Source: Candidatus Hodarchaeaceae archaeon
GTDB lineage: Archaea; Hadarchaeota; Hadarchaeia; Hadarchaeales; Hadarchaeaceae
Direction of reading: 5' to 3'
Assembly: GCA_030018135.1 (NCBI GenBank)
Contig: JASEGJ010000008.1
Span: 1 to 45,750, forward strand
Length of the DNA: 45,750 nucleotides
Part shown: positions 26,323 to 39,422 of the stretch, piece by piece
Numbering within the stretch: position 1 is the first letter of the stretch
How the letters are laid out: each line of letters starts with the position of its first letter
Program-made: the position numbers and the translations under genes
The notes under the pieces: generated by a model
Told to the model about the DNA's origin: nothing
The model's database searches: none
The model's input: only the letters and a program-made list of their open reading frames with translations

Positions 26323-27336
26323 CTACGCGCCCCGAACTCCAATCAAGTGGCAGGCCACGTAATGGCCGTTCTCCACATCGGCAAATTCCGGCTCCTTCTC
26401 CCTGCATATCGGCTTCGCGTAGGGGCACCTCGGATGGAACCTGCAGCCCGGCGGGGGGTCTATCGCGCTCGGTATTTCACCCCTTAGCAAGGTGCCCTCG
26501 GGCTTGTACTTCGGGTCCGGAACTGGAACGGCCGCAAGCAGAGATTGCGTGTAAGGGTGCAGGGTGTTCTCGCGCAACTCCTCCTGGGGCGCCAGCTCCA
26601 CTATCTTCCCAACGTACATCACCGCGATCCTATCGCTCATGTGCTCGACGATGTTCAGGTCATGGGAGATGAGGAGGTAGGTGAAATCGAACTTTTTGCG
26701 GAGGTCGCTCAATAAATTGAGTATGTGGGCCTGAACTGACACATCTAGGGCCGAGGTTGGCTCGTCCAAGACGACGAAGTCGGGGTTTACAGCTAATATC
26801 CTAGCGATCGCTATCCTCTGTTGCTGTCCACCGCTGAACTCGTGCGGGAATCTGTCAAGATGCTCTGGACCCAAGCCCACCTCCTTGAGCACGTCCAACA
26901 CTATTTTTTCCTTTTCCTCCCCATGGGCTATGCCATGGATTTCAAGTGGCCTGCCGACCAACTCCGAGACCGTCATCCTGGGGTTCAGCGACGACTGAGG
27001 ATGCTGGTATACGACCCCCATCCTCCTCCTCAGCCTTCGCAACTCCTCGTCGCTCAACATCGCCAAGTTGCGGCCGTCGAAGTAAATCTTGCCAGCGGTG
27101 GGTCTAATTAGTCCCAAAATCAACTTTCCCACCGTCGTCTTCCCGCAGCCGCTTTCGCCCACCAAGCCGAAGACCTCGCCCTTTTCGATGTGGAAATCCA
27201 CGTCATCGACCGCTCGAACCCACCTAACCTTTCGCGCGAAAATTCCCTTCTTCGTCTCGAAATATTTCTTCAGGCCTTCGACCACAACCGGATTTTCCTT
27301 TGGATCCTCAGCTTCCACCGATTTCGCTTTTGTCAT
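26323..27336 (-). CDS. dppF: Peptide/nickel-family ABC transporter ATPase (DppF/OppF)
   Basis: [29 protein letters not shown] and C-terminal CRFHPRC. Confidence 0.93.
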   Translation of the reverse strand: MTKAKSVEAEDPKENPVVVEGLKKYFETKKGIFARKVRWVRAVDDVDFHIEKGEVFGLVGESGCGKTTVGKLILGLIRPTAGKIYFDGRNLAMLSDEELRRLRRRMGVVYQHPQSSLNPRMTVSELVGRPLEIHGIAHGEEKEKIVLDVLKEVGLGPEHLDRFPHEFSGGQQQRIAIARILAVNPDFVVLDEPTSALDVSVQAHILNLLSDLRKKFDFTYLLISHDLNIVEHMSDRIAVMYVGKIVELAPQEELRENTLHPYTQSLLAAVPVPDPKYKPEGTLLRGEIPSAIDPPPGCRFHPRCPYAKPICREKEPEFADVENGHYVACHLIGVRGA

Positions 27337-28331
27337 TTGCCCACACCCTCGCCGAATAGATGACATCGCACTAAATGTTCCTTTTCGACCTCAATCGTGT
27401 TTGGGTTTTCTTTTTTACAGATGTCCATGGCGTAGGGACATCTCGGATGAAACCTGCAGCCCGGCGGGGGGTTGACTAGGCTGGGGACCGTCCCCGGGAT
27501 GGTCACGAGTTCCCCTCGCTTGACATCCGCCTTCGGTATCGCCTTGAGCAGGGCTTGGGTATAGGGGTGCTTCGGGCTCTCGAATAGGGCGAGGAGATCG
27601 GCTTCCTCCACGATGTTGCCAGCGTACATCACGGCAACCCTATCGCACATCTGGGCTATCACTCCCAGATTATGGGTGATGATAAGGATGGACGTGTTGA
27701 GCCTCCGCCTCAGCTCCCTCATCAACTCGAGTATTTGCGCCTGAATGGTCACGTCCAGCGCGGTCGTGGGCTCATCGGCTATGAGCAGGGATGGGTTGCA
27801 CGAAAGCATCATGGCTATCATCGAGCGCTGCTTCATTCCCCCGCTGAACTGGTGCGGGTACTCGACTACCCTAACCTCCGGGTCCGGCATGCCGACCAGC
27901 TTTAGCATCTCCACCACCTTTTTTGGCACATCCTCGGGACTTATCAAGTGTTCCTCGATGACCTGATGCAGCTCTATGGGCTCCGCTATTTGGTCGCCTA
28001 CGGTAAAGACCGGATCCAGTGCGGTATGGGGGTCCTGAAATATCATCGAGATCTCGCTCCCCCTTAAGCGCCTCATCCCCTCCTCGCTTTTTTTGAGCAG
28101 ATCCTCTCCCCTGAAAATGATCCTGCCTGTGACGATCTTGCCCGGCGGGCTGGGGATCAACCTCAGTATCGATAGGGCGGTGACCGTCTTCCCGCAGCCG
28201 CTTTCGCCCACCAAGCCGAGGATCTCCCCCTTGCGCAAGTCGAAGCTCACCCCATCGACCGCCTTCACCACGCCCTCGTCCATGAAGAAGTACGTCTTCA
28301 ACCCTCGCACCTTGAGCAATGGCCTCGTCAC
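27333..28331 (-). CDS. dppD: Peptide/nickel-family ABC transporter ATPase (DppD/OppD)
   Basis: [33 protein letters not shown]. Confidence 0.93.
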
Positions 28332-28334
28332 AGG

Positions 28335-29240
28335 CTATCCCCTCAACCTCGGATCAAACGCGTCCCTCAACGCGTCTCCTAGGAAGTTGAAACCCAGAAC
28401 AGTTACTATAATAGCTATTCCCGGGAATATCGACATCCAAGGCATCTCCGCTAAAAACCTGCTATGCTCGCGGAGCATCGCCCCCCAGTCAGGCGTCGGG
28501 GGCATTATCCCCAACCCGAGAAAGCTCATGGCCGAGGACAAAAGGATCGCCGCGGGCAGCGTCATCGTCGCGAGTACTATGAGGGGAGATACTATATTTG
28601 GCAATACGTACCGAAGGATTATGCTTCTGTCCTTCTCCCCGATCGCTCGGGCGGCCTCGATGTATACTTCCTCCTTTACTGCCAAGGTCTGGCCGCGCGT
28701 CAGCCTAGCATATCCGGCCCAACCGGTTATCGACAGCGCGATTACCAAATTGTAAATACCGGGGCCAAAAAATCCGACAAATGCGACGGCCAGCACCAAG
28801 CCGGGGAACGCGATTACCGCATCCACTATCCTCATCATGACCCCGTCAACCTTACCGCCGCGATAGCCAGCTATCAACCCATAGGGTACGCCGATCACGG
28901 CCTCCACCGTGACGAGCAAGATCCCTATCGTCAGCGCGATCCTGGAAGCGTAAATGATCCTGCTAAAGATACATCTGCCGAGGTCATCCGTTCCCAAGGG
29001 ATATTTTCCGCCGGGGGGCAGAAGCTTGTCCTCCAAGCGCTGCACCTCTGGGTCATGTGGGGCTATGAAATCCGCAAATATCGCCACCGTGATGACCGCC
29101 AGCACGATTCCCAATCCAACCCACGCCCGCTTATCCCGCTTTAGGTACCTGAAGGTGGGCGACCTGCTCTTCCTTTTTAAATAACCGTAAATCCCACCGC
29201 CGACGTTTTTTGCCACGTTTGAAGACGCCACTGATCTCAC
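28335..29240 (-). CDS. dppC: Peptide ABC transporter permease (DppC)
   Basis: [16 protein letters not shown] (EAA loop), LSFLGLG-like, [11 protein letters not shown]. Confidence 0.93.
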
Positions 29241-29251: not shown

Positions 29252-30184
29252 CTATCTTCTCTCCTCGTACCTTATGCGCGGGTTGAGGTACGCGTATGTG
29301 ATATCACAGAGGAGATTAGCTACGACCGCCAACACGACAAACATCAACATGACCCCGAGAACTGTGAGGAAGTCCGGCGCCGTGCCAAGTATCGAATCGA
29401 CCATAAGCCTTCCCATGCCCGGCCATGAGAATACTTTTTCTATCACGACCGTGCCGCCAAATAGGAACGGAAGTCGCAGAAACAATATGGTGACCACGGG
29501 GATGAATGCATTCCTCAACGCGTGTTTGTAAATGACCGCCCTTTCTCGAAGCCCCTTCGCCCTAGCTGTCCTTATGTAGTCCTGCCTGAGTACATCCAAC
29601 ATGCTCGACCTAGTTAATCTGGCCACTGAACCAGCCTGACTTGTCCCAAGAGTGATGGCTGGCAGTATCAAATATTCTATGCCGCCGTAGCCCGCGATTG
29701 GGAACCAGCCCAACCATATCCCAAATATCAATATTGCCATCAGCCCCTGCCAAAAGTTCGGTATGGAAACGCCGAAGAGCGCGATCCCCATACCCGTGTA
29801 GTCGACCCAAGTCTTTCGCCTAAGCGCCGCGATGATCCCGAGTGGAATGCCCATCGCCAGCGACACCATAAAGGCGGCGATGGTCAGCTCGAGCGTGCGC
29901 GGGAGCCTCTCAAGTATTAGTTGCGAAACGGGCGCACCCCACTTCCAAGACCTCCCGAGGTCTCCTCTGACGACCTTGCTCAGCCATATGAAATATTGCT
30001 CGTAAAGGGGCTTATCGAGTCCATAGGCGATTCGTATGCTCTCAATCTGCTCAGGACCTGCCATTGGGCCGGCTATCCTCGCCGCCGGATCGCCCGTACC
30101 AAACATTAATAAAAAAGTCGCAAGCGACACGCCTAACAATATGGGAATTATCGTTAGCAGCCTCTTCGCGATGAACTTGTACAT
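29252..30184 (-). CDS. dppB: Peptide ABC transporter permease (DppB)
   Basis: GLDKPLYEQY, GDLGRS, DYIRTARAKGL, HALRNA, LNPRIR. Confidence 0.94.
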   Translation of the reverse strand: MYKFIAKRLLTIIPILLGVSLATFLLMFGTGDPAARIAGPMAGPEQIESIRIAYGLDKPLYEQYFIWLSKVVRGDLGRSWKWGAPVSQLILERLPRTLELTIAAFMVSLAMGIPLGIIAALRRKTWVDYTGMGIALFGVSIPNFWQGLMAILIFGIWLGWFPIAGYGGIEYLILPAITLGTSQAGSVARLTRSSMLDVLRQDYIRTARAKGLRERAVIYKHALRNAFIPVVTILFLRLPFLFGGTVVIEKVFSWPGMGRLMVDSILGTAPDFLTVLGVMLMFVVLAVVANLLCDITYAYLNPRIRYEERR

Positions 30185-30239: not shown

Positions 30240-31869
30240 TTATTCCTCATGTTCCTCAATGTACGTGTCGAGAAACTTCCAGCACCAACCCAAAAGCGGA
30301 TGCGCCCTGTAGCCCTTGAGCTCGGCTCGATGGGCCATGAACATTGCGCGCTCCACTGTCGGTGTAATAACTGCATCGTCCATGATCAGCCTTTGGCTTT
30401 CGTAAAGGGCCGCGAGGGCCGTATCGCTGTCGAGCAAAAACGTGTTCTCGATGACGGCGTCCGAATAATCGCTGCCCCACCAGAATCTGTTCGGCCCGGG
30501 GGGCAACCGCACCCTGTGCCAGAGCCACCAAATCATGTCCGCATTGTGCCAAGTGTAACCCATGATGAACATGTCAAATTGAGCCTTGGTGATACAGTCG
30601 ATGAGCAGCCCGAACTCCAAAACTTGGATCGATAGGTCGACTCCGACCAGCTTCCACTGCTCCCTTAAGATCTCCGCCAGCCTCGGGTACGGCGGGGCCG
30701 AAGTGGTGAGTAACTCCAGATTCAGGCCGTCTGCGTACCCCGCCTCGGCCAACAACTGCCTCGCCTTATCCGGATTATATTGGTAATAATTTTCGACCCC
30801 AGGCCAGTAGCCCCATATGGAGGACACAAGCGGCCCATGAGCTGGAAGTCCCATGCCCTCGTAGGCGTACTCGACCAAGTTTTCCTGATAGGTGGCGTAG
30901 TTCAGCGCCTGCCTCACCCGGACATCGTTGCATGGCGAGGGCCTTTTGGTTTCTGGCCATGAGCGCACGGGGTAGTTCGCTGGCACCGGGAAGAGCGTGG
31001 GCGAACTGACGTTGAATCCGATGTAAACCATGGATGAGTAGGGCTTCTTGAGCATCACGATATCTGGGTTCCTCTCCCACCTCTCGAACAGCTCGGCGCG
31101 GGGGGCAGCTTGCTCCAACATGTGGACCCTTCCAGCCTCGAGCTCGGCCTCCTGCACCAGGGACTCCGGGATGACCCTGAATATGATCCCGTCCAGGTGC
31201 GCCGGGCCGCGGTTTTGATAGCGCGCGGGACCCCACTTGTAGTCCGGGTTTCGCTCAAGCACGATCCTGTCGTCCCGAATCCACTCCTTGACCCTGAACG
31301 GCCCCGTGCCGCAGAACTTGCTCACGCCGTAGTCCTCCCCGTATTCCTTAACACAGTGCGGGCAAACTATGACACTCGAAGTCGTGGCGAACCAATCGAC
31401 GAGGAATCTATCCTCTTTCTTCAGGTGAACCCTCACGGTGTACTCGTCCACCACCTCGACATCCAAAATGTTCTTCACAGAGTCCTTATGCTTGGAAGGG
31501 GGCCAATCCTTCGCCCTCTCGATGCTGAACTTCACCGCCTCGGCGTTGAACGGCTCGCCGCAGTGGAACTTCACGTCGTCCCTGAGGTGGAAGGTGATGC
31601 TGAGCCCGTCAGGGGCAACCTCCCAAGATTTCGCCAGCAGGGGCATGTCCCCAGTCGAAAGTCATGAGAGTGTCGCATATTAGACCTATCACACGGGTCG
31701 CGGGATCAAAAACCGTTCGATGTATGTCCAAGATGTCCGCGTCCTGGCTCTGGACGATTACCAACACCCCGCCCTTCGGCACGGGCGGGGCCCTGGGCAC
31801 GAGGATATACGCCACCGCGAGTATGATCAAAATCACTATTGCTGCCGTGCCCACCTTAACCCTGACCAC
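30240..31869 (-). pseudogene. dppA: Family-5 substrate-binding protein (DppA) split by a frameshift near 31650
   Basis: 31609..31869 encodes the TM anchor and ...ICDTLMTFDW; 30240..31646 continues in another frame with PLLAKSWEV...TFHLR.DVKFH.G.PFNAEAVKFS and GTGPF. The break is at CCCC 31649-31652. Confidence 0.8.
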
Positions 31870-32022: not shown

Positions 32023-34476
32023 TTATTCCTTCTTCCTTCGCTTCAACGTCAAGTATGCCGCTATCGCTATTATCACTATTACGACGATCGCTGCGATCAC
32101 TGCCCACGGTATCTCGGCTATCTCGGCGGGCGGAGCCTCTTCCGCGGTCAACCTGAACTCCAATTCATCTGATGCCCCAGTCCCAGTTACTTTTGCCTTT
32201 AGGTCGTCCCTCGTGATGGCATCCACCTTGGGCGTCGTTATCGTTATTTTGACCTCGGCGCTCTGCCCGGGTGATATTGTTACCTCCCCGCGCTCAAGCT
32301 CGACCGGCCAACCCTTTGTGCTTGTGACGGCGATCCTATACGTATTTGTCTCGGTGCCCTCGTTCGTGATCGTCAGGGTGAAGACCCCTTTCTCCCCGCC
32401 TTTCACCGTCGGTCCCTTTCCTGGATCCCATGATCCCTTTACCGAAACCGCATACGGCGAGTACCAAACCTCGTGATCCACGAGGTAAACGCGGGGGTCC
32501 CATGGCCAGCGGTTATACTTTTCGTTGTCGGTCACTTGGTCGTCCTGCACCCTGATGCCTGCCCCCAACGCCTCGAGAATCGGGTTAGTGTTGAAGGGTC
32601 TGGTGTAGCCACCATAATCGGCCTGCTCGCCGAGGAACAGGCCCCCGCCCGCGAGTACCCAGTCGCGGATGGCCGTGATCTCGGCACTTGTAAGGGATCG
32701 CTCCGGGGTGACGAACATGAGCACGCTGTACGGCGCGAGGCGCTCCGAGGTTATCCCATCGGTGTAGGTGTGGACCGTGTAGCCCTGACCTTCCAAGAAA
32801 TTGAGCCACAACTCCATGCGATCCTTGTTGTGGAAGGCCGTGGAGGGGGTCCAGTAGAAGAGCACGCTGTGCTGCGCCGCGTTCTCGTACCGCACCAACC
32901 AGCCCACCATGCGCGAGCCAATCTCCCTGAGCCTCAACGCCTCGACGCTGAAGTGGTCCGTCGGCGCGCTCCGGAAGCTGGCTCCGCCGCCGTGGACTAT
33001 GACCCTGCCTCCTCCAACCTCTGCAGCCGCGGCTATGATCGGGAACTCGCCCCTGCCGAACGGCACCGGGTAGGGCTCGCGGTAGGATTCATCGAGGGTG
33101 CAAGCGGTTTCCGTCCCGATGATGATCGGCTGCGCGGGGGATTCGACGGTGAGCGAGGGCGTGCTGAAGACATAGTAGTATTCGTCCTTTCTGTATATCG
33201 GGTATGGGGGTTCTGCCGTCGGGAAGTACGGTGCCGTCGATAGGAAGACCGAGTCCTCGACGCCTGTGCCACTTGCCGTGATCTTGACCACGTTTCTGAC
33301 CTTCTTCGTTATGGCCGGGTCGACGGTGATCCTGACCGCTACCCTGTACACCTCGCCCGCTGCGAGCGAGAGCGTGGATGGCGAGACCTCTATCCCCCAC
33401 CCCAAGTTATCGGTCGCGGTTACGGTGTAGTTGTCGTCGAGGGTGCCCGTATTGGCGACGGCAACGATCGTTACGATGTCCTTCCCGGGTTCTTGAGTGA
33501 CCAACGTGGGTCTGAAGTTGTTGTCCACCCGAGGGGATTGCTTCGGCTCGGTTTCGAGAAACGTTACCGCTACCGTCCTCAACGCGGGCGGGGCGAGCGT
33601 GCAAATGCTGTACAACCCGATCTCCGTCTTTCCGATGGCAGCCTGGTAGGCAGCCCCTATCTCGGTCGTGGTGTCGACATCGAGGACTGGCTGGTATGCG
33701 CCGTACCAATAATTGGTCGTATCGCTCATCTGGTCCATCTGGAACCAGAGCCCGAAGCCGAGGGCGGAGAGTATCTTGTTCTGCACCTTGTAGTAGTTGT
33801 GTCCGCCGTAGTCGGAGGCATCCATGACGAGCAGGCCCTTGCCCTTCTCCTCGACGAAGGCCTTGATGGCGTCAACACTTGCTTCAGGCAGGAAGTCCGG
33901 ATCTCCTCCCGTCGCGGCAGTGCCGAGCTGGAACTGAGGTACGACAAGGATGTCGTACGGCGCGAGAAGGCTCGCGGTGATGGGCTCGGTGCTGTCGCCC
34001 GTAATCGTATATCCCAAAGCTTCGAGCGCGGCTACGAGCTGCGCGCATCGCTCGGTGTTGTTGTAGACCCCGTAGCCCTCGTACCAGAGCACCTTGGCCG
34101 CGCCGGGTTTCATCCACCGGAATGCCTTGTCGAGCAGGATATCGAGGTGGGGTAGTGGGTTCGCTCGGCCCGCCCTCGCATCGTTCCACCTGCCGTCCCG
34201 AGCGGTGGCTGCGAGGCCCGCGGCGACGACCGCCCCGGCGCCGATCCTCTGGGCCGCCATTATGGGCGGGCGATCGCCGGCTACGTAGAATTTCCACGGT
34301 TTATCTCCAGTTTGGTTTATGTTAAAGGCGGTTTCCTTTCCGCGGACGATGACGATGACCTCCGGATTTTCTGCGACTGTAAAGCTCGAAGTTATGAATG
34401 TCAACGTCGCTGTGATCATTAGGATAGATATCAAAATGCCGCTCCTTGTGATCGCTTTACGATTTTTCGTTTTCAT
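32023..34476 (-). CDS. Secreted, C-terminally anchored surface protein with two DUF4350/GATase-like domains and two Ig-like domains
   Basis: Signal peptide; duplicated ITxxxLAPYxxL...DYGG modules; NTGTLDDNYTVT and NEGTETNTYRI Ig-like units; C-terminal TM plus KRRKKE. Confidence 0.8.
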   Translation of the reverse strand: MKTKNRKAITRSGILISILMITATLTFITSSFTVAENPEVIVIVRGKETAFNINQTGDKPWKFYVAGDRPPIMAAQRIGAGAVVAAGLAATARDGRWNDARAGRANPLPHLDILLDKAFRWMKPGAAKVLWYEGYGVYNNTERCAQLVAALEALGYTITGDSTEPITASLLAPYDILVVPQFQLGTAATGGDPDFLPEASVDAIKAFVEEKGKGLLVMDASDYGGHNYYKVQNKILSALGFGLWFQMDQMSDTTNYWYGAYQPVLDVDTTTEIGAAYQAAIGKTEIGLYSICTLAPPALRTVAVTFLETEPKQSPRVDNNFRPTLVTQEPGKDIVTIVAVANTGTLDDNYTVTATDNLGWGIEVSPSTLSLAAGEVYRVAVRITVDPAITKKVRNVVKITASGTGVEDSVFLSTAPYFPTAEPPYPIYRKDEYYYVFSTPSLTVESPAQPIIIGTETACTLDESYREPYPVPFGRGEFPIIAAAAEVGGGRVIVHGGGASFRSAPTDHFSVEALRLREIGSRMVGWLVRYENAAQHSVLFYWTPSTAFHNKDRMELWLNFLEGQGYTVHTYTDGITSERLAPYSVLMFVTPERSLTSAEITAIRDWVLAGGGLFLGEQADYGGYTRPFNTNPILEALGAGIRVQDDQVTDNEKYNRWPWDPRVYLVDHEVWYSPYAVSVKGSWDPGKGPTVKGGEKGVFTLTITNEGTETNTYRIAVTSTKGWPVELERGEVTISPGQSAEVKITITTPKVDAITRDDLKAKVTGTGASDELEFRLTAEEAPPAEIAEIPWAVIAAIVVIVIIAIAAYLTLKRRKKE

Positions 34477-35446
34477 AATCTACCTCCCAAAGAAGATGAG
34501 GGCCGACTTTTATAAATGTTTTGGAGGGAAAAAAATATTTTTTGCCCGCCAAAGACCACGAGAAAATCAAAAGCATTGCGGCGAGCATTGGTGCCGCTGT
34601 TAAAGGATTTAGGCCCATGCTGGCTGCGCGGGTTTTCGAGGTTTCGAATGTAAGTTTGTAATGGGGCTCCTCCAGCCAGACGCCCTCGAGGTGGTTTCTC
34701 GCCCTTATCTCCACCTCGACCTCGCCACCCTTGGGCTTTACGAAGAGGAAGATCGATTCGTACTGTTTGTTCCAATCTATGGAATTGACCCCGAACGACA
34801 TGAACCCGTAGGGGGTGTTTTCAACCAACACCCACCGATGAAGATGCCCGTGGAACCACACATCGACGACGACATCGCCCTCGAACGCCGTCTGCAACTT
34901 GGGCCAGACGTTCCATTGATAGTAGGGCTGGTGGGAGAAGATGAAGATCGGCTTGTCCCTGTTGGTATGGAGCTCCGCCCACAGCCAGTCGAACTGCTCG
35001 TCGCCCATGACCCCGCCGCCGTAGTGGACGTAATTCTCCCAGCCCTTTTCGTCCGATATCAGCACGAACCTAATTCCAGCCACATCGATGCCCCTATATG
35101 ACAATGGAAGCACGGCCTCCCCCGTGTCGCGGTCAAAGTCGTGGTTGCCCAAAACGTAGTACCATCCCCTGACCTTCAGGTTTTCCATCATCCCTGCGAT
35201 CGGTGGAAAACTGCGGTGGCTGTCGTTCGCGAGGTCCCCCAGGCAGATGGCGTAGTCCGCTATTTGAAGTCTGTTCACGTCCTCGATGGCAGTGCGTAGG
35301 TACCTTTCGTCTCCCGGGAAAACGTGAGGGTCGGTAAACACCCACCAGACCTGCTCGCCGTCGCCCCGGGTGACGATGAAGCCCGTGGCCGCGAACGCGC
35401 ACGCCGCGACGACCGCAGCCGCAACCATGATAATTTTCGAACCCAT
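34457..35446 (-). CDS. Secreted calcineurin-like metallophosphoesterase
   Basis: DPH, GD, GNHD, SH and GHLH motifs; N-terminal signal/TM and a hydrophobic C-terminus. Confidence 0.88.
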   Translation of the reverse strand: MGSKIIMVAAAVVAACAFAATGFIVTRGDGEQVWWVFTDPHVFPGDERYLRTAIEDVNRLQIADYAICLGDLANDSHRSFPPIAGMMENLKVRGWYYVLGNHDFDRDTGEAVLPLSYRGIDVAGIRFVLISDEKGWENYVHYGGGVMGDEQFDWLWAELHTNRDKPIFIFSHQPYYQWNVWPKLQTAFEGDVVVDVWFHGHLHRWVLVENTPYGFMSFGVNSIDWNKQYESIFLFVKPKGGEVEVEIRARNHLEGVWLEEPHYKLTFETSKTRAASMGLNPLTAAPMLAAMLLIFSWSLAGKKYFFPSKTFIKVGPHLLWEVDYENEKS

Positions 35447-35469: not shown

Positions 35470-36558
35470 TCACTCAAGCCAGCTCGAGTAGACGCTCCCC
35501 CAGTCCCTTTGGAATATCTTCATCAAATCCCCGACCACCTCGGGGGATCTGACCATCACGCCGACATCCCTGCCCCCGTCGGTTATGTACCGGATGTCGA
35601 TGTTGGCGCTCCCGACGTAGGCCCACTCGTTGTCGACCACGATGACCTTGGGGTGGGCCGAGTATGGATGTCTGATGACCGTCACGCCCACCCCCTCACG
35701 TCCCGCGAGCTCCTTGAGGGCGTACTCCCATTTGAGGGACTCCTTGTCCACCATCACCTCCACCCTGACGCCTCGGTCGAGCGCGCTCACCAAGGCCTCC
35801 CTGAGCTTGGGGGGCATGCCGTTGTATATGTACATGTAGATGTAGACATTTTTTTCCGCGCGATCTATCAGCGCGGCGAACGCGTCGAGGGTGCGGGTGA
35901 CCTCCACGGGCACCTCCGGACCGTTGGCCACCGGGATCACCCAATCCGCCCCCCAATATTCACTGCCCCTCGGCTCCCCGCCCGCCGCGACCCAGCCGCT
36001 CTCGAAGATATATGTGTAGGTCCCAGCCATCTCCTCGCCGTAAAGCGTAAGATTCACCTCGCGGTTGAAGGTCAAGGCGTAGTAGCTCCAGTTGGTGCTC
36101 CCGACGCTCACCACCTTCCCATCCACTATCATGTACTTCGCGTGCGTCTGTCTGGGGAATGGCAGCGCGGTTATCCCCTCGTGCTGGTCGAGTTCCTTCA
36201 CTATGTCTCGAGCGTAGTTTCGCCCGTCCACGAGGATCCTGATCTCAACGCCCCGATCGGCGGCATCCTTGAGGGCACTGTAGACATCGCCCAGGGGGCC
36301 TTGGGGAGGATTGAGGTAGTAGGCTTCGATATCTATGGTATATTTTGCCTCTCGAATTAGCTTGAGCCAAGTATCTGCGATGTCGTCTATCTTGGGATCG
36401 TTCAGCTCCGGGGGCGCGGTCTCGGTCACCTCGATGCTCGGCGCGGCCGGCGGCGTCGAGCTGAGCGAGCGGTAGCCGGCGTAGCCGACGGTTATCGCGA
36501 CGGCAACGAGCGCCGCGATGACCGGAACAACCCTTGCAGATTTGCCCTTCAAGTCCAC
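35470..36558 (-). CDS. Membrane-anchored phospholipase D-superfamily enzyme (two HKD motifs)
   Basis: HAKYMIVDGK...GSTN and HPKVIVVDNE...GSAN; N-terminal TM. Confidence 0.92.
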   Translation of the reverse strand: MDLKGKSARVVPVIAALVAVAITVGYAGYRSLSSTPPAAPSIEVTETAPPELNDPKIDDIADTWLKLIREAKYTIDIEAYYLNPPQGPLGDVYSALKDAADRGVEIRILVDGRNYARDIVKELDQHEGITALPFPRQTHAKYMIVDGKVVSVGSTNWSYYALTFNREVNLTLYGEEMAGTYTYIFESGWVAAGGEPRGSEYWGADWVIPVANGPEVPVEVTRTLDAFAALIDRAEKNVYIYMYIYNGMPPKLREALVSALDRGVRVEVMVDKESLKWEYALKELAGREGVGVTVIRHPYSAHPKVIVVDNEWAYVGSANIDIRYITDGGRDVGVMVRSPEVVGDLMKIFQRDWGSVYSSWLE

Positions 36559-37493
36559 CCCTCGGCCGCCTGTTTCATGCTATCCTCTGCCATCACAGGG
36601 GGTCTGCGCGTCGCCTTATTAATTTTTGGGCTGGTGGCTGGTTGGGCTCGCTTCCTCAAGACGTATGTAATTACGACCAAGGCGAAGGCCATCGCCGCGA
36701 TGGCTACGGCAGCCCAAGCGGTTCTCGGTCCCTCCTCGGTCGATACCCCGGCCTTCACCAATCCGGCATCTATCAACGCCGTATACCAGATGTCGGCCGT
36801 CAACCTTACGGCGACGTTGAGCCTGTTCTCGGTTATCCCCCTTAAAACATCGTTCCAAAGTACCCCCTGCACCAGCCAATAGCTCACCTTATCGCTTTCA
36901 TAGCCCGCGTATCCAAAGCTATCTAGGGCGACCTCGACCGTCGCCTGAAAGACGTTCTCGAGTAACCTAGGTTCGTAATCGTAAATCGTTATCTCGTGTA
37001 GCATCCCATCCACCCCGTCCTCGAATGCAACGTGCCTCCCCCCAGGGTTGTAGTCCGAGGTCGCATGGAGCGGCATCGTGATGTCCGTGGCGTAATGGGT
37101 TATCGCTCCCGCGAGCAGAGCGGCGCGCTCCCAGTCCCTAGCCCTCAGGCTCTCGACGAACATGAGGTAGTTATCGGCCAATGCCCAGGGGAGCATACCC
37201 AGTTCCGGATTCACCCCATCGGGGGATAGGTCTACATCGTAGAAGTGCCTGTATCGCTCGCTCGGGTCCTCGCCCCGCCATTTTATGTCGGGATAGATGG
37301 AGTACTCGACGACGAGGTCGCCGAACGCGTTGAAGAAGGGCTCTTCGGGGAGCAGCCCCATCGCCCGCTCGGCGACGAATTTGTGGGCCCTCAGGCCCCA
37401 ACCCCGCACCTCCGCGACTGAGGCGGAACTCAAAATGAGAACCACGAGGACGACGAAGGAAGCTCGGAAGATTAAACGACCGTGAGCCATCAT
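36549..37493 (-). CDS. Secreted S1/P1 nuclease / Zn-dependent phospholipase C family protein
   Basis: Signal peptide then WGLRAH; PD, HFYD, HYATDITMPLH and HVAFE zinc ligands; C-terminal TM plus RKR. Confidence 0.88.
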   Translation of the reverse strand: MMAHGRLIFRASFVVLVVLILSSASVAEVRGWGLRAHKFVAERAMGLLPEEPFFNAFGDLVVEYSIYPDIKWRGEDPSERYRHFYDVDLSPDGVNPELGMLPWALADNYLMFVESLRARDWERAALLAGAITHYATDITMPLHATSDYNPGGRHVAFEDGVDGMLHEITIYDYEPRLLENVFQATVEVALDSFGYAGYESDKVSYWLVQGVLWNDVLRGITENRLNVAVRLTADIWYTALIDAGLVKAGVSTEEGPRTAWAAVAIAAMAFALVVITYVLRKRAQPATSPKINKATRRPPVMAEDSMKQAAEGWT

Positions 37494-37612
37494 TTGCCCC
37501 CTAAATTAATTGCGGACGTGCTTTTAAAGCTGCGCTGCATTAACTATTCAGCCGTTTGGTGGAGGCTAGTTCGGGGCGTGGCCTAGGCCGCCTATGTGGT
37601 GGGCGCCTTCGC

Positions 37613-37946
37613 TGTCACAGCTGTGACGTCGGGGCAGCGCCGCGGATGTCACACCTGTGACACGAGGCGCGCGATTTTGCCCGCTTATAAACGACCTCCA
37701 CCCAAAGCCCTCGCGGGCTATGCCGAACTCGTATCTGATCGTCTACGACATAAGGGAGCTCGACTGCGGGACGAGACAGCGGGTGAGCCGGCGCCTCAGA
37801 AAAATCCGCGCGGTGAGGCTTCAGCAATCGGTGTGGGAGTCGAGCAGACTGGCGGAGCTGAAGAACCTAGCCGACTCGATCGGTCTGGCCGGCGGGAAGG
37901 CGTTGGTGTTGGAGAAGCGAACAGTCCACTTGTCACACCTGTGACA
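37613..37946. repeat. Three 16-bp palindromes TGTCACA-NN-TGTGACA
   Basis: TGTCACAGCTGTGACG at 37613-37628; TGTCACACCTGTGACA at 37647-37662 and 37931-37946 (identical). Confidence 0.88.
37720..37944 (+). CDS. Orphan Cas2-like (ferredoxin-fold Cas2/VapD/PaaX-type) small protein, 74 aa
   Basis: YLIVYDI...RQRVSRRLRKIRAVRLQQSVWE matches the Cas2 pattern; TATA-like CTTATAAA at 37684-37691. Confidence 0.72.
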   Translation: MPNSYLIVYDIRELDCGTRQRVSRRLRKIRAVRLQQSVWESSRLAELKNLADSIGLAGGKALVLEKRTVHLSHL

Positions 37947-38030
37947 AACATGTGCTCGCACCGGAGAAATTTTCAGCGCGCTCCTAAGCCCCAGGCGGGG
38001 GACTGCGGAATTTCGGACTTAATGCGCGAG

Positions 38031-39422
38031 TTATTTCCTCTTGAAGTAGAGGATCGCCGCTAAAGCCGCAATGGCGACGACCACCCCGGCGGTCGCTATT
38101 GGGATCCCCGCCGGCTCGCTGGGTGTAGCCTTTTGGATGACCAGCTCATCGAAGACATCTCCATTTGCGTCGATCGCCCTCATGTGGAGCGTCCCGTTCT
38201 CGTAGATGTCCAGCAGGACGAAGTGATACCTGGGCTCGGGACCGAATGCGGTGAACCACTTGGGGCGGTAGCCGGTGTACAGCGGCGCTCCCCAGCCGCC
38301 GCTCACCACGTAGGTGACGCCATTCTCGAGCGACACGACCTCGCCGGGCGCCCTGGTCCAGTCGAGCGGGTGGGAGCGCTCGTAGGTGTGGAAGTGACTC
38401 ATCAACACCAGGTCGACGCGGTACCTGTCGAACAGAAAAGCCAAATTGTCTATCATGTACTTGACCTCCGACCTGGCGGAGACCATGTCCCTGTGGAAGA
38501 CCACTATCTTCCAGAGGTAGTCCTTGGACGCCTCCAGCTCGCCCCCCAGCCAGTCGACCTGCTCCTTCCAAGCTTCTGAGTTGGGGTCCAAAATCTCGCT
38601 GTCCAGCACTATTATCCGCAGGTCGGGCCCCCAGCTCAGCGCGTACCAGCGCTCGTTGCCCGGCAGGTCGAACAGCGCGTAGTAGTTCATGGCGTGGGCG
38701 CTCGGGTCGTAGTCCGTGGGCTGCGGATAGATTATCTCGTGGTTCCCTATCGCCGGGACGATCGGGATCATCAGGCCCTCGGGGGTGACCCAGTATTGGT
38801 ACATCGCCGAAAACCAGCCGTCCCAGGTGTCCGGCGCCACTTGGTCGTCACCGTTCCAGAGGAAATCCCCGCTGAAGACGGCAAACGATGGGCTGCGCTG
38901 CGCCATGAGCTCCGAGGTATTGTTCCTAGACACCGGCCAATCGGGGTGGGGATGGGTGGGCCTCGTGTCCGACCTCGAGTCGCCCCCGACGACGAGGCTG
39001 AAGCTCGTCCTGCTCGCCGGGGCGGTGCGGAAGGCCCGCTCCTCGCTCCATCCGTAGCTGGAATGCCCGGCGATGAAGTAGTAGACGGTGTCCGGCTTCA
39101 AGCCCGTGAGCTCGACGTGGTGGATGTAGCCCTCGAACTTCGCGGTGGTTATCCCCTCGCTGCCCGAGGCGCGATAGCGGTACGCCTCCGGGTCTCCGCC
39201 CCTCGACTGCGTGTCGTAGCGCACCTCGCCCGCATAGTTGCCGGTCGTGCGCCAGCTGACGTTGATGCTGTGGGCGGTGTCGTCGCTTGCCCAGGTGAGG
39301 TAGACGTAGGCCGGCGGGTCCTGAGCCAAGGCGAATGCCGGGGAAACCGCGGCGCTCGATAGCATCAGCGCGATCGCCGCCAGCGGGATGATCGCCGCGA
39401 TTTTTCCCCCTATATCACCCAT
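38031..39422 (-). CDS. Secreted purple acid phosphatase-like metallophosphoesterase with FN3 domain
   Basis: Signal peptide; HHVELTGLKPDTVYYF; GDSR, SGD, GNHE, VFH and SHFHTYERS motifs; C-terminal TM plus KRK. Confidence 0.92.
   Translation of the reverse strand: MGDIGGKIAAIIPLAAIALMLSSAAVSPAFALAQDPPAYVYLTWASDDTAHSINVSWRTTGNYAGEVRYDTQSRGGDPEAYRYRASGSEGITTAKFEGYIHHVELTGLKPDTVYYFIAGHSSYGWSEERAFRTAPASRTSFSLVVGGDSRSDTRPTHPHPDWPVSRNNTSELMAQRSPSFAVFSGDFLWNGDDQVAPDTWDGWFSAMYQYWVTPEGLMIPIVPAIGNHEIIYPQPTDYDPSAHAMNYYALFDLPGNERWYALSWGPDLRIIVLDSEILDPNSEAWKEQVDWLGGELEASKDYLWKIVVFHRDMVSARSEVKYMIDNLAFLFDRYRVDLVLMSHFHTYERSHPLDWTRAPGEVVSLENGVTYVVSGGWGAPLYTGYRPKWFTAFGPEPRYHFVLLDIYENGTLHMRAIDANGDVFDELVIQKATPSEPAGIPIATAGVVVAIAALAAILYFKRK

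What the first reader, a model, noticed from the sequence alone, without database searches (positions are those of the whole stretch)
26323..39422. Cell-surface phosphoester-scavenging system: four unrelated anchored hydrolases, a scaffold protein and an ABC importer
Seen: co-oriented genes for a purple acid phosphatase, an S1/P1-PLC enzyme, a PLD, a calcineurin-like phosphoesterase, a large DUF4350/Ig protein and dppABCDF. S1/P1 to the scaffold gene are overlapping or nearly abutting, and every enzyme has a signal peptide or TM anchor. Knowledge: S1/P1 and PLD families cleave nucleic acids or phospholipids, metallophosphoesterases release phosphate, and family-5 binding proteins also carry non-peptide ligands. 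Inference: an archaeal utilisation locus that degrades extracellular DNA/RNA or phospholipid at the cell surface and imports the products, so the 'peptide' transporter may carry nucleotides or phosphoesters.
Basis: partly seen in the sequence, partly recalled or inferred. Interest (0 to 1): 0.75.

Follow-up and report, generated by a model that had tools for sequence, protein, structure and literature searches.

The report
Archaeal cell-surface phosphoester-scavenging gene cluster
An archaeon of the deep-subsurface Hadesarchaea group encodes, side by side, four membrane-anchored enzymes that cut phosphate esters, an uncharacterised surface protein and an ABC importer. The same combination recurs in distant relatives, so it looks like a kit for harvesting nucleic acids or other organic phosphates from the surroundings.

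Summary
Ten co-oriented minus-strand genes (26323-39422) encode:
- a PAP-like metallophosphoesterase;
- a PLC/P1-superfamily zinc enzyme;
- a two-HKD PLD-family enzyme;
- a second metallophosphoesterase;
- an 817-aa DUF4350/GIFT+Ig surface protein ("SCAF");
- dppABCDF, with dppA frameshifted in a G-run.

All five non-transporter proteins have an N-terminal hydrophobic segment, and four also have a C-terminal anchor. The closest relatives are Hadarchaeales MAGs.

I found 13 archaeal loci through SCAF. Nine also hold phosphoesterases and six hold Dpp genes. They occur in two arrangements, across SCAF lineages only about 40% identical. Relatives add thermonuclease-like, NPP-type and cytoplasmic DHH/DHHA1 genes.

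In six bacterial loci the PAP-like enzyme is fused to a SCAF-like domain. One of these sits inside a nucleotidase / nucleoside-phosphorylase / BMP-transporter operon.

The genes are therefore functionally linked, and nucleic acid is the best-supported substrate. Three things stay open:
- phospholipid remains possible;
- the SCAF domain is a promiscuous surface module, mostly found with CBM96;
- the transporter's cargo is untested.

Verdict: a new variant of a known kind (extracellular DNA / organophosphate foraging), of moderate interest.

The parts
38031..39422 (-). PAP-like metallophosphoesterase (463 aa). It has an N-terminal hydrophobic segment and a C-terminal TM anchor.
   Evidence: - Pfam: Pur_ac_phosph_N plus Metallophos.
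- A family profile hits plant PAPs and lupin PPD1 (3zk4) at E about 1e-25.
- Conserved metal-ligand residues: D148, D186, N227, H228 and H310 are invariant; H343 and H345 are nearly invariant. The Tyr of GDxxY is W189, a non-conserved position.
- Hydropathy.
- Homologues lie beside SCAF in 7 of 13 archaeal loci, and the enzyme is fused to a SCAF-like domain in 6 of 6 bacterial loci.
36549..37493 (-). Trinuclear-zinc enzyme of the PLC / S1-P1 nuclease superfamily (314 aa). It has a signal-like N-terminus and a C-terminal TM followed by a 35-aa tail.
   Evidence: - PF00882 scores 45.5 bits (cut-off 26.8).
- PF02265 scores only 14.8 bits (cut-off 29.5).
- 15 of 42 homologues carry both families.
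- W32, H37, D69, H83, H133, D137, H143, H154 and E158 are invariant or nearly so in 28 sequences.
- The only PDB sequence hits are B. cereus-type PLC, at E 1e-4 to 5e-3.
35470..36558 (-). Two-HKD PLD-superfamily phosphodiesterase (362 aa) with an N-terminal TM anchor.
   Evidence: - Pfam: PLDc_2 twice and the PLDc motif twice.
- Both HxK...D...GSxN motifs are readable in the translation.
- Best PDB hit: 7e0m, Serratia PLD (E 2.7e-22). Next come poxvirus F13/K4, the PLD3/PLD4 5'-3' exonucleases and Nuc.
- NCBIfam gives sub-threshold DrmC, NucT and cardiolipin synthase hits.
34457..35446 (-). Calcineurin-like metallophosphoesterase (329 aa) with N- and C-terminal hydrophobic segments.
   Evidence: - Pfam Metallophos, 43.6 bits.
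- DxH, GD, GNH and GHxH motifs are readable in the translation.
- Weak similarity to the 2',3'-cNMP phosphodiesterase SpdA (E 1.3e-8, far below cut-off) and to a 'phosphohydrolase' (2zo9/2dxl, which I recall as GpdQ; E 0.14).
- Homologues lie beside SCAF in L001, L002, L008, L016 and L019.
32023..34476 (-). SCAF, an 817-aa type-I surface protein. It has two DUF4350/GIFT-like alpha/beta domains, each followed by an Ig-like domain, and a C-terminal TM anchor.
   Evidence: - Pfam.
- An internal duplication shows up in tblastn.
- AF2 models have pLDDT 86.7 for the whole protein and 93.3 for the N-domain.
- The fold neighbours of the N-domain are the IMPa N-domain and IFT52 GIFT, with TM 0.4-0.5.
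- No PDB relative is detectable by sequence.
- The N-domain family has 134 representative clusters among 1.84 billion.
30240..31869 (-). dppA-like family-5 substrate-binding protein with an N-terminal TM anchor. The gene is interrupted by a +1 frameshift near 31640-31650.
   Evidence: - Pfam SBP_bac_5.
- Reading of the sequence.
- Alignment with the intact L001 gene, which is 84% identical over the C-terminal part, shows one extra G plus a 9-nt deletion.
29252..30184 (-). dppB-like permease.
   Evidence: - Pfam BPD_transp_1 plus BPD_transp_1_N.
- 90.6% identical to the L001 protein.
28335..29240 (-). dppC-like permease.
   Evidence: - Pfam BPD_transp_1 plus OppC_N.
- 83.7% identical to the L001 protein.
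27333..28331 (-). dppD-like ATPase.
   Evidence: Pfam ABC_tran plus oligo_HPY.
26323..27366 (-). dppF-like ATPase. This is the end of the cluster, convergent with the Pop5 gene at 25993-26307 (+).
   Evidence: - Pfam ABC_tran plus oligo_HPY.
- Flanking genes.

Best explanation
This is a conserved Hadarchaeia/Bathyarchaeia locus for breaking down organic phosphate esters at the cell surface. The most likely substrate is nucleic-acid debris.

**Proposed mechanism.**
1. Membrane-anchored phosphodiesterases cut polymers or diesters outside the cell. In this window they are the PLC/P1-type zinc enzyme and the HKD/PLD-type enzyme. In relatives they also include thermonuclease-like and NPP-type enzymes.
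2. The PAP-like and second metallophosphoesterases trim the products and release phosphate.
3. SCAF works as an extracytoplasmic accessory of the adjacent Dpp/Opp-family ABC importer. It may hold the enzymes or the substrate close to the binding protein.
4. The importer takes up a product that is probably not a peptide: a nucleoside, nucleotide, short oligonucleotide or other small phosphoester.

**Shown:**
- domain identities;
- intact catalytic motifs;
- extracytoplasmic topology;
- conserved linkage of the genes;
- the PAP::SCAF-domain fusion in bacteria.

**Inferred:**
- the substrate;
- the order of steps;
- the role of SCAF;
- the cargo.
For: 1. **Extracytoplasmic enzymes with intact active sites.** Four different phosphoesterase families, all with hydrophobic N-termini and mostly C-terminal anchors, have conserved active-site residues.
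2. **Tight packing.** ZnPLC, PLD, MPE and SCAF overlap or abut (-10, +23 and -20 nt).
3. **Conserved linkage.**
   - 9 of 13 archaeal SCAF loci carry phosphoesterases, 7 of 13 carry the PAP-like gene and 6 of 13 carry Dpp genes.
   - In all 5 loci with at least 1 kb visible beyond the SCAF 3' end, a Dpp operon is present.
   - In L008 and L016 the SCAF stop overlaps the dppA start by 8 nt.
   - In L007, L008, L010, L016 and L019 the enzymes are divergent from SCAF across a short shared spacer, whereas in the window, L001 and L002 they are co-directional.
   - These arrangements span SCAF lineages about 40% identical.
4. **Extra genes in relatives.**
   - Surface-anchored thermonuclease-like proteins (L007, and two in L008) with DGDT / GIDAPE / GRLL-type motifs.
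   - A type-I phosphodiesterase/NPP and another metallophosphoesterase in L010.
   - Cytoplasmic DHH/DHHA1 phosphoesterases at the edge of L007 and L008.
5. **Bacterial fusions.** In 6 of 6 bacterial loci the PAP-like enzyme and a SCAF-N-like domain are one protein. In L011 this fusion lies between a multifunctional nucleotidase-like gene plus a uridine-phosphorylase-like gene and a BMP/PnrA-type ABC importer.
6. **Nuclease-like affinities of the PLD.** Its PDB relatives include the PLD3/4 exonucleases and Nuc. The authors of its closest structure note nuclease-like loops (PMC8004604, passages).
7. **DppA hints.**
   - The SCAF-linked DppAs share an invariant Trp/Arg-rich block.
   - Pro (L001; His in the window protein) aligns with E. 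coli DppA D408, and Pro aligns with R355. The roles of those two E. coli residues are recalled, not tested.
8. **Literature.** An extracellular micrococcal nuclease in a Hadesarchaea MAG is already listed in print (PMC8289736, one main-text passage and a supplementary table row).
Against: - The window itself has no unambiguous nuclease. The ZnPLC matches only phospholipase C among solved structures, and its S1-P1 score is below threshold.
- The closest solved relative of the PLD is deposited as a phospholipase D.
- The SCAF-N domain is not specific to phosphoesterases. Of 40 representatives scanned, 19 carry CBM96, 3 NosD/beta-helix, 1 a subtilase and only 1 the PAP module.
- Only 1 of the 6 bacterial fusions sits in a nucleoside context.
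- The nearest solved relatives of DppA are peptide, heme, glutathione and nickel binders.
- In the window, dppA is frameshifted. A 153-nt spacer with a T-run separates it from SCAF, so co-transcription here is doubtful.
- L001/L002, L003/L005, L010/L019 and L007/L008 are pairs of related loci, so there are fewer independent observations than loci.
- There are no expression or biochemical data.
Confidence: 0.55

Rival explanations
1. Phospholipid head-group scavenging. The PLC-type and PLD-type enzymes strip head groups from bacterial or archaeal membrane lipids in necromass. The two metallophosphoesterases release phosphate from the phospho-head groups. The importer takes up head-group products or glycerophosphodiesters.
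For: - The only Pfam hit of the ZnPLC above threshold is zinc-dependent phospholipase C, and its only PDB sequence matches are B. cereus-type PLC.
- The best PDB match of the PLD is the Serratia phospholipase D 7e0m.
- The weak match of the MPE to 2zo9/2dxl (which I recall as the glycerophosphodiesterase GpdQ) fits diester head groups.
Against: - Thermonuclease-like, NPP-type and DHH/DHHA1 genes in related loci fit nucleic acids better, as does the nucleoside operon around the L011 fusion.
- 15 of 42 ZnPLC homologues also match the S1-P1 nuclease family.
- The PLD also matches the PLD3/4 exonucleases and Nuc.
Confidence: 0.15
2. Adjacent but separate functions. The enzymes release inorganic phosphate only, which is taken up elsewhere. 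SCAF is a general cell-surface or envelope protein. dppABCDF is an ordinary peptide importer that happens to lie next to it.
For: - The SCAF-N domain occurs mainly in large surface proteins with CBM96, beta-helix and Ig domains.
- Each genome has several SCAF paralogues. Some (L003, L005, L009) have no phosphoesterase in view.
- DppA is closest to peptide-type binding proteins.
- In the window a 153-nt spacer separates SCAF from dppA.
Against: - The SCAF stop and dppA start overlap by 8 nt in L008 and L016.
- Dpp is present in all 5 loci where the SCAF 3' side is visible, and linkage survives inversion of the operon in L007.
- The PAP-SCAF domain fusion in bacteria argues for joint action of at least those two.
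Confidence: 0.22
3. Remodelling of the cell's own envelope. The enzymes would turn over the cell's own lipid head groups or phosphate-containing surface glycans rather than acquire nutrients.
For: - All the proteins are tethered to the cell's own membrane.
- SCAF-like domains co-occur with carbohydrate-binding modules.
Against: - A dedicated importer is linked to the enzymes.
- Nuclease-type genes occur in relatives.
- No glycosyltransferase or lipid-synthesis gene was seen in the loci that were scanned.
Confidence: 0.05

Closest known systems
Bacterial extracellular-DNA foraging gene sets (secreted nuclease, surface or periplasmic nucleotidases and nucleoside/phosphate transporters; Wasmund et al. 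2021, PMC8289736, passages and one supplementary row seen)
   Same: - The logic is the same: cut the polymer outside the cell, dephosphorylate, import.
- That paper also lists a predicted extracellular micrococcal nuclease in a Hadesarchaea MAG. Homologous types occur in L007 and L008.
   Different: - Here the enzymes belong to other families (PAP-like, PLC/P1-type, HKD/PLD-type and a CpdA-like metallophosphoesterase).
- They are anchored by C-terminal TM helices.
- They are clustered with a DUF4350/GIFT surface protein.
- They are linked to a Dpp/Opp-family importer rather than a nucleoside or Pst transporter.
Thermotogaceae operon in locus L011
   Same: It contains a PAP-like enzyme joined to a SCAF-N-like domain, next to an ABC importer and other nucleotide-cleaving enzymes.
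   Different: - PAP and the SCAF-like domain are one secreted protein without a TM anchor.
- The importer is of the BMP/PnrA (nucleoside) type.
- A cytoplasmic nucleoside phosphorylase is co-encoded.
- The other 5 bacterial fusion loci lack this context.
Plant-type high-molecular-weight purple acid phosphatases and lupin diphosphonucleotide phosphatase/phosphodiesterase PPD1 (PDB 3zk4)
   Same: - The two-domain architecture is the same.
- Six metal-ligand positions are shared.
- The family profile matches them at E about 1e-25.
   Different: - The Tyr of the GDxxY motif is absent, and the position is not conserved in the family.
- The protein is prokaryotic and membrane-anchored.
Zinc-dependent phospholipase C (B. 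cereus PLC) / S1-P1 nuclease superfamily
   Same: All nine positions that I recall as the trinuclear-zinc ligands are conserved, including a Trp placed right after the predicted signal segment.
   Different: - The window protein scores above threshold only for the PLC family.
- 15 of 42 homologues score for both families.
- The substrate cannot be assigned.
HKD/PLD superfamily: Serratia PLD 7e0m, PLD3/PLD4 exonucleases, Nuc
   Same: It has two intact HKD motifs in one chain. Its best sequence matches are to these proteins.
   Different: - It is an archaeal protein with an N-terminal membrane anchor.
- Whether it is a lipase or a nuclease is unknown. The reference structure's own authors raise the same question for their enzyme (PMC8004604, passages).
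GldG / ABC_transp_aux, DUF4350 and the IFT52 GIFT domain (accessory domains of ABC systems and of intraflagellar transport)
   Same: - Sequence: DUF4350 scores above threshold, and ABC_transp_aux, GIFT and ThuA score below threshold.
- Fold: IFT52 GIFT matches with TM 0.44-0.52.
- Genomic coupling to an ABC transporter.
   Different: - The partner here is a family-5 binding-protein-dependent importer, not an ABC-2 exporter (the GldG partner type is from my own knowledge).
- The architecture is two such domains plus two Ig domains plus one C-terminal TM.
- No function is known for any of these domains.
Family-5 binding proteins with non-peptide ligands (the agrocinopine-binding AccA, nickel/opine/heme binders and chitin-oligosaccharide binders appear among the PDB hits)
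   Same: It is the same protein family. There is precedent, recalled, that AccA binds a sugar phosphodiester. The molecule names appear.
   Different: - The window-type DppA is much closer to DppA, HbpA and GsiB-like proteins (E 1e-36 to 1e-53) than to AccA (E 1e-13 to 1e-17).
- Its ligand is unknown.

Membership tests
Purple acid phosphatase | An N-terminal fibronectin-like PAP domain followed by a metallophosphoesterase domain. | tested here: met
   - Pfam PF16656 (62 bits, cut-off 30) and PF00149 (40.5 bits, cut-off 21.5).
- The family profile matches plant PAPs at E about 1e-25.
Purple acid phosphatase | Seven metal ligands in five motifs (GDxG, GDxxY, GNH[DE], VxxH, GHxH; motif list recalled), including the Tyr that gives the purple Fe(III) charge-transfer band. 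| tested here: not met
   - Six positions are conserved: D148, D186, N227 and H310 are invariant, and H343 and H345 are at least 90% conserved in 37 sequences.
- The Tyr position is W189 in the alignment with 3zk4, and that column is not conserved.
- I therefore file it as a PAP-like metallophosphoesterase, not a true purple acid phosphatase.
Purple acid phosphatase | Acid pH optimum, tartrate resistance and colour. | not testable with these tools
   This needs purified protein.
Zinc-dependent PLC / S1-P1 nuclease superfamily | A score above the curated threshold for a member family. | tested here: met
   PF00882 scores 45.5 bits against a cut-off of 26.8.
Zinc-dependent PLC / S1-P1 nuclease superfamily | Nine ligands of the trinuclear zinc site, including the N-terminal Trp of the mature protein (ligand list recalled). 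| tested here: met
   - W32, H37, D69, H83, H133, D137, H143, H154 and E158 are invariant or at least 90% conserved in 28 homologues.
- The H133/D137/H143 and H154/E158 blocks align with B. cereus PLC.
S1-P1 nuclease family proper (PF02265) | A score above the family's gathering threshold. | tested here: not met
   - The window protein scores 14.8 bits against a cut-off of 29.5.
- 15 of 42 homologues do carry PF02265 in the precomputed annotation.
- The profile of 28 homologues found no S1/P1 structure up to E = 1.
PLD / HKD superfamily | Two HxK(x)4D(x)6GSxN motifs in one chain. | tested here: met
   - PLDc active-site motif matched twice and PLDc_2 matched twice.
- Both motifs are readable in the translation.
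PLD / HKD superfamily | Phospholipid substrate as opposed to nucleic-acid substrate. | not testable with these tools
   PDB neighbours include both kinds: 7e0m PLD, PLD3/4 exonucleases, Nuc and NucT.
Calcineurin-like metallophosphoesterase | Pfam threshold and the DxH / GD / GNH / GHxH motifs. | tested here: met
   - PF00149 scores 43.6 bits against a cut-off of 21.5.
- The motifs are readable in the translation.
- The subfamily is unresolved: SpdA-like at E 1.3e-8 (34.9 bits, cut-off 400).
Dpp/Opp-type (family 5) binding-protein-dependent ABC importer | A binding protein, two permeases and two ATPases with the oligo_HPY C-terminal region. | tested here: met
   Pfam. NCBIfam hits are all below the equivalog cut-offs.
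Dpp/Opp-type (family 5) binding-protein-dependent ABC importer | An intact binding-protein gene. | tested here: not met
   - A +1 frameshift in a G-run splits the gene.
- A sequencing or assembly error cannot be excluded.
- Orthologues in L001, L006, L007, L008, L016 and L017 are intact.
Dpp/Opp-type (family 5) binding-protein-dependent ABC importer | Peptide specificity (the residues binding the peptide's amino and carboxyl ends in E. coli DppA; their roles are recalled). | tested here: inconclusive
   - The HMMER alignment puts Pro opposite both D408 and R355 of 1dpp.
- The equivalent of D408 is His in the window protein.
- These are loop regions in a single pairwise alignment.
Nucleic-acid / nucleoside scavenging locus | A secreted enzyme of an established nuclease family. 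| tested here: inconclusive
   - None in the window.
- SNase-like proteins occur in L007 and L008 at or just above the Pfam cut-off (22.2 and 23.0 bits against 21). A third scores below it (18.3 bits).
Nucleic-acid / nucleoside scavenging locus | A nucleoside-type transporter (BMP/PnrA or similar). | tested here: not met
   It is absent from the window and from all archaeal loci. It is present only in bacterial L011.
DUF4350 / GIFT (class-I glutamine-amidotransferase-like) domains | Pfam threshold and fold. | tested here: met
   - PF14258 scores 49.6 bits against a cut-off of 30.4 for the C-terminal copy.
- The N-terminal copy's model matches IFT52 GIFT and the IMPa N-domain with TM 0.4-0.5.
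- No conserved Cys or His is among the invariant columns of the N-terminal domain.

The most novel reading that the evidence does not exclude
SCAF together with the Dpp/Opp-family transporter is an archaeal uptake system for nucleic-acid fragments (nucleotides or short oligonucleotides) rather than peptides. The surface enzymes cut DNA or RNA only down to small phosphoesters. SCAF hands these to a Trp/Arg-rich family-5 binding protein. Cytoplasmic DHH/DHHA1 (NrnA-like) enzymes, co-encoded in L007 and L008, then finish the job. If so, this would be the first nutritional ABC importer of oligonucleotides. It would also give a function to a DUF4350/GIFT-type domain.
Probability: 0.15. Interest if true: 0.8.

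Novelty: new variant of a known kind. Interest (0 to 1): 0.52.

Why it matters
**Ecology.** Hadesarchaea and Bathyarchaeia are abundant, uncultured inhabitants of the deep subsurface. There, nucleic acids and lipids of dead cells are major pools of phosphorus, nitrogen and carbon. A conserved, surface-tethered enzyme set linked to an importer would give a concrete genetic basis for necromass recycling by these archaea.

**Testable leads.**
- A family-5 'peptide' binding protein may carry a phosphoester or nucleoside.
- An uncharacterised DUF4350/GIFT-type surface protein is coupled to an ABC importer and fused to a phosphatase in bacteria.
- A PLC/P1-type and a PLD-type enzyme have substrates (lipid or nucleic acid) that annotation pipelines cannot assign.

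If only the ordinary reading holds, the locus is still a useful marker for organophosphate scavenging in archaeal MAGs.

Tried and rejected
- **Whole-chain Foldseek of the SCAF model against PDB.** The hits were dominated by Ig-repeat proteins with TM about 0.1, which is uninformative. I replaced it with a domain-only model.
- **Complex prediction of the PAP ectodomain (residues 33-436) with the SCAF N-domain (residues 38-312).** It was accepted after repeated queue-full answers. The result was 'no answer' with score 0.00. It counts neither for nor against binding.
- **ESM Atlas look-alikes of the SCAF N-domain.** It gave only low-count leads (DUF4092, TCAF_N, GIFT/ThuA, DUF4350) and no structure search.
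- **Sigma-70 promoter and intrinsic-terminator scan.** Counts were no higher than in shuffles, and the models are bacterial, so I drew no conclusion. The TATA-like and T-run elements I read by eye in the spacers are impressions only.
- **Rfam scan of 26000-40000.** No hit.
- **NCBIfam on the enzymes and on the extra genes of relatives.** Nothing reached an equivalog cut-off. The names are therefore only family-level.
- **Literature.**
  - 'DUF4350' with 'phosphatase' gave 0 papers.
  - 'Hadarchaeota' with 'purple acid phosphatase' gave 0 papers.
  - 'Hadesarchaea' with 'extracellular' and 'nuclease' gave 6 papers. I opened one of them and saw passages of another (PMC8630151) through a different search. 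Neither described this cluster.
  - A search on Hadarchae, phospholipase, nuclease and necromass listed no paper that holds the Hadarchae term.
- **Defence-system reading of the PLD.** I rejected it, despite the DrmC-like NCBIfam hit at 86 bits against a cut-off of 133, because the protein has a membrane anchor and phosphoesterase neighbours.
- **TrkA_N-DHH-DHHA1 gene of L001/L002.** I did not count it as part of the system. It is divergent, two genes away, absent from the window, and only marginally similar to the L007/L008 DHH proteins.

Full report
**What is there**

Between 26323 and 39422 the minus strand carries ten genes in one direction. Pfam assigns them as follows.

| Gene | Coordinates | Pfam assignment |
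|---|---|---|
| PAP | 38031-39422 | Pur_ac_phosph_N + Metallophos |
| ZnPLC | 36549-37493 | Zn_dep_PLPC |
| PLD | 35470-36558 | two PLDc_2 / HKD units |
| MPE | 34457-35446 | Metallophos |
| SCAF | 32023-34476 | DUF4350 plus Ig-like domains, 817 aa |
| dppA | 30240-31646 | SBP_bac_5 |
| dppB, dppC | 29252-30184, 28335-29240 | BPD_transp_1 permeases |
| dppD, dppF | 27333-28331, 26323-27366 | ABC_tran + oligo_HPY ATPases |

- ZnPLC/PLD overlap by 10 nt, PLD/MPE are 23 nt apart and MPE/SCAF overlap by 20 nt.
- PAP lies 537 nt upstream of ZnPLC, and dppA lies 153 nt downstream of SCAF.
- A hydropathy scan finds an N-terminal and a C-terminal hydrophobic segment in PAP, ZnPLC, MPE and SCAF. It finds an N-terminal segment only in PLD and in the N-terminal piece of DppA. 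All should therefore face outward. No dedicated signal-peptide predictor was available.
- dppA is broken. Its first 86 codons (31609-31869) are in another frame. Against the intact L001 orthologue, the window has one extra G in a G-run and a 9-nt deletion. The remaining 468 codons are 84% identical to L001. This is either a recent lesion or a sequencing error.

**Organism and boundaries**

- The flanks encode archaeal ribosomal proteins, Pop5 and aIF2.
- The closest loci found through SCAF are MAGs labelled Hadarchaeales or Hadesarchaea.
- L001 is syntenic from PAP through dppF into Pop5, L15e and the GTPase, at 66-91% protein identity over the cluster genes.
- Upstream of PAP the synteny ends.
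  - The window has a weak HEPN-like ORF plus a nucleotidyltransferase, a 943-aa Ig-bearing surface protein and an AbiEi/AbiEii pair.
  - L001 and L002 have a thiamine-binding-protein gene and a TrkA_N-DHH-DHHA1 gene there.
- GC content is even across the cluster.

**The enzymes**

*PAP.*
- It is homologous to plant-type purple acid phosphatases and to lupin PPD1. The single sequence gives E 1.4e-9 and the family profile about 1e-25.
- Six metal-ligand positions are conserved in 37 sequences. The Tyr of GDxxY is W189, in a non-conserved column.
- It is therefore a PAP-like metallophosphoesterase, not a true purple enzyme.

*ZnPLC.*
- All nine positions that I recall as the trinuclear-zinc ligands of the PLC/P1 superfamily are conserved. 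They include a Trp directly after the signal-like segment.
- Only the PLC family scores above threshold for the window protein. The S1-P1 family scores 14.8 bits against a cut-off of 29.5.
- 15 of 42 homologues carry both families.
- Solved structures match only as phospholipase C, at E 1e-4 to 5e-3.

*PLD.*
- It has two intact HKD motifs.
- Its best solved relative is the Serratia plymuthica PLD 7e0m (E 2.7e-22). Then come poxvirus F13/K4, the PLD3/PLD4 5'-3' exonucleases and Nuc.
- The passages I read of the 7e0m paper say that the enzyme has nuclease-like loops and ask whether it cuts nucleic acid (PMC8004604).

*MPE.*
- It is a generic calcineurin-like phosphoesterase.
- It shows only weak SpdA-like similarity and a marginal match to a 'phosphohydrolase', which I recall as GpdQ.

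All four are credible, active, extracytoplasmic phosphoesterases. For ZnPLC and PLD, sequence alone cannot separate lipid from nucleic-acid substrates.

**SCAF**

- AlphaFold2 with 31 homologues gives a confident model with pLDDT 86.7. Its parts are an alpha/beta domain (about 40-300), an Ig domain, a second alpha/beta domain (about 480-670), a second Ig domain and a C-terminal helix.
- The N-domain alone models at pLDDT 93.3.
  - Its best fold neighbours are the N-terminal domain of the P. aeruginosa peptidase IMPa and the GIFT domain of IFT52, with TM 0.4-0.5.
  - Peptidase E and a ThuA-like protein follow.
  - The fold is thus flavodoxin-like / glutamine-amidotransferase-like, with no close solved relative.
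- By sequence no PDB chain is detectable.
- No Cys or His is among the invariant columns of the N-domain alignment. Several Asp, Asn, Lys and Gln residues are invariant.
- The domain family is small: 134 representative clusters at E <= 1e-3 among 1.84 billion.
- It is modular. Among the 40 representatives I scanned out of those 134:
  - 19 also carry CBM96;
  - 3 carry NosD/beta-helix;
  - 1 carries a subtilase;
  - 1 carries the PAP module;
  - the rest carry only Ig domains or nothing.
- Two homologues carry a PHP domain.

The domain is therefore a general building block of archaeal surface proteins, and 'scaffold' is a hypothesis, not a finding.

**Comparative loci**

An alignment of 31 SCAF homologues retrieved 19 loci from the species-representative genome collection. 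Thirteen are archaeal (L001-L010, L016, L017, L019) and six are bacterial. I compared them with tblastn of the window proteins, ORF maps and Pfam. The archaeal loci with cluster genes are arranged as follows.

| Locus | Gene order |
|---|---|
| L001 | full cluster |
| L002 | PAP-ZnPLC-PLD-MPE-SCAF, then contig end |
| L006 | PAP(-), dppA, SCAF |
| L007 | PAP fragment, dppFDCBA(-), a small Ig protein, SNase-like, PAP(-), SCAF(+), DHH/DHHA1(-) |
| L008 | DHH/DHHA1(+), then PLD, SNase-like, PAP, SNase-like and MPE (all -), then SCAF-dppABCDF-PAP (+) |
| L010 | ZnPLC, PAP, NPP-type phosphodiesterase, MPE and ZnPLC (all -), SCAF(+) |
| L016 (Bathyarchaeia) | MPE(-), SCAF-dppABCDF |
| L017 | SCAF-dppABCDF, PAP(-) |
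| L019 | ZnPLC and MPE (-), SCAF(+) |

- 9 of 13 loci carry phosphoesterases, 7 of 13 carry PAP and 6 of 13 carry Dpp genes.
- The four loci with neither (L003, L004, L005, L009) all have SCAF at a contig end. L004 is only 1.6 kb. L003, L005 and L009 instead show other surface-protein genes upstream: CBM96 proteins in L003 and L005, and an Ig protein plus a beta-propeller protein in L009.
- In all 5 loci where at least 1 kb beyond the SCAF 3' end is visible, a Dpp operon is present.
- In L008 and L016 the SCAF stop overlaps the dppA start by 8 nt.
- There are two arrangements. The enzymes are co-directional with SCAF in the window, L001 and L002. They are divergent from it across a short spacer in L007, L008, L010, L016 and L019.
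- SCAF identities show that these arrangements belong to lineages only about 40% identical.
- L001/L002, L003/L005 and L010/L019 are near-duplicates, and L007/L008 are related. The independent observations number perhaps six or seven, not thirteen.
- The SNase-like proteins have an N-terminal anchor and thermonuclease-type motifs. The DHH/DHHA1 proteins have no hydrophobic segment and carry DHH and GGGH motifs.

**Bacterial fusions**

- In all six bacterial loci (Thermotogae, Atribacteria/Caldatribacteriota, Bipolaricaulota and one unclassified) a single ORF of 792-849 aa joins the PAP-like enzyme to a SCAF-N-like domain. That domain is 42-49% identical to the window's.
- In L011 the fusion lies in an operon-like row:
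  1. a uridine-phosphorylase-like gene;
  2. a multifunctional 2',3'-cyclic-nucleotide phosphodiesterase / nucleotidase-like gene;
  3. the fusion;
  4. a BMP/PnrA binding protein;
  5. an ABC ATPase;
  6. two permeases.
- The other five fusion loci show no such context.
- The fusion argues that PAP and the SCAF-type domain act together. The L011 context points to nucleotides.

**The transporter**

- The DppA orthologues are closest to peptide, heme and glutathione-type binding proteins among solved structures. The hits are 5u4o, 6ofq and DppA, at E 1e-53 to 1e-36. They reach no NCBIfam equivalog cut-off.
- The seven SCAF-linked DppAs share an invariant Trp/Arg-rich block.
- In the HMMER alignment with E. 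coli DppA, Pro lies opposite D408 and R355. I recall those residues as the peptide-end binders.
- This is a lead towards a non-peptide ligand, not a test.

**Most likely mechanism**

Surface-tethered phosphodiesterases and phosphomonoesterases degrade external organophosphates, most plausibly nucleic-acid debris. The SCAF-Dpp pair imports a product.

The cytoplasmic enzyme co-encoded with the locus differs with the transporter:
- a nucleoside phosphorylase goes with the BMP system in L011;
- DHH/DHHA1 phosphoesterases go with the Dpp system in L007 and L008.

This fits import of a phosphorylated product in the archaea, but it rests on two related loci. I put the overall reading at 0.55. The rivals are phospholipid head-group scavenging (0.15), separate functions that merely adjoin (0.22) and envelope remodelling (0.05).

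**Relation to what is known**

- Extracellular-DNA foraging gene sets are described for bacteria. The same paper mentions archaeal MAGs with extracellular nucleases, and one supplementary row lists a micrococcal nuclease in a Hadesarchaea MAG (PMC8289736, passages and one supplement row).
- A study of gas-hydrate sediments lists Bathyarchaeia among potential DNA degraders (bioRxiv 10.1101/2022.05.19.492412, passages).
- I found no description of this cluster, of the SCAF family, or of a PAP-DUF4350 link. The searches were made, and I mostly saw only listings and passages.
- I therefore rate it a new variant of a known kind.

**Limits**

- No biochemical or expression data exist.
- The complex prediction gave no answer.
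- Residue roles in reference enzymes are recalled, not tested.

Noticed in passing
window 37613-37946 (+), inside the 537-nt PAP-ZnPLC spacer: - A 74-codon plus-strand ORF (37720-37944) has a sub-threshold Cas2-like match: PF09827 at 22.4 bits against a cut-off of 23.8. It also matches the PaaX Cas2-like domain.
- Three copies of the 16-nt palindrome TGTCACAnnTGTGACA bracket it, two upstream and one at its stop codon. None of 100 shuffles reaches three copies.
- In L001 the PAP and ZnPLC ORFs are only 24 nt apart, so this looks like an insertion or a small autoregulated gene.
   Followed up: partly
window 31640-31650 (-): dppA carries a +1 frameshift in a run of four G (three in L001), next to a 9-nt in-frame deletion. 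The rest of the gene is intact and 84% identical to L001. It is either a sequencing error or a very recent lesion.
   Followed up: yes
window 39603-40504 (-) and 43983-45498 (-): Two toxin-antitoxin-like pairs lie upstream of the cluster, in the stretch that is not syntenic with L001. One is a weak HEPN-like ORF plus a nucleotidyltransferase (MNT type). The other is AbiEi plus AbiEii.
   Followed up: no
window 40602-43433 (-): A 943-aa protein has an N-terminal hydrophobic segment, a C-terminal TM anchor and Ig-like domains only in its last 200 residues. The first 750 residues match no Pfam family. It has no counterpart in any related locus. A 124-codon ORF (40501-40875) overlaps its 3' end.
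   Followed up: no
L003:1-8077 and L005:4521-7811: Very large surface proteins (more than 1000-1650 aa) combine a SCAF-N-like domain with CBM96 and many Ig-like domains. They lie directly upstream of a SCAF paralogue. Each Hadesarchaeal MAG sampled by two or more loci seems to hold two to four SCAF paralogues.
   Followed up: partly
L007:4153-6144 (-) and L017:1618-3762 (+): Two SCAF-linked DppA orthologues carry extra modules. The L007 protein has a C-terminal Ig-like domain of the same kind as in SCAF. The L017 protein has an insertion of about 170 residues after the N-terminal anchor.
   Followed up: no
L005:2551-3342 (-): A free-standing LAGLIDADG homing-endonuclease-like ORF lies next to an HD-domain gene.
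   Followed up: no
window 9229-11066 (-): Two adjacent ORFs (450 aa and 166 aa) have no Pfam match. They sit among translation and tRNA-modification genes.
   Followed up: no
L012 and L013 (Atribacteria/Caldatribacteriota): These bacteria carry the secreted PAP::SCAF-domain fusion. A sediment study (passages of bioRxiv 10.1101/2022.05.19.492412) reports Caldatribacteriota as lacking known extracellular nucleases while having nucleoside transporters. The fusion may be an overlooked extracellular nucleotide-processing enzyme.
   Followed up: no
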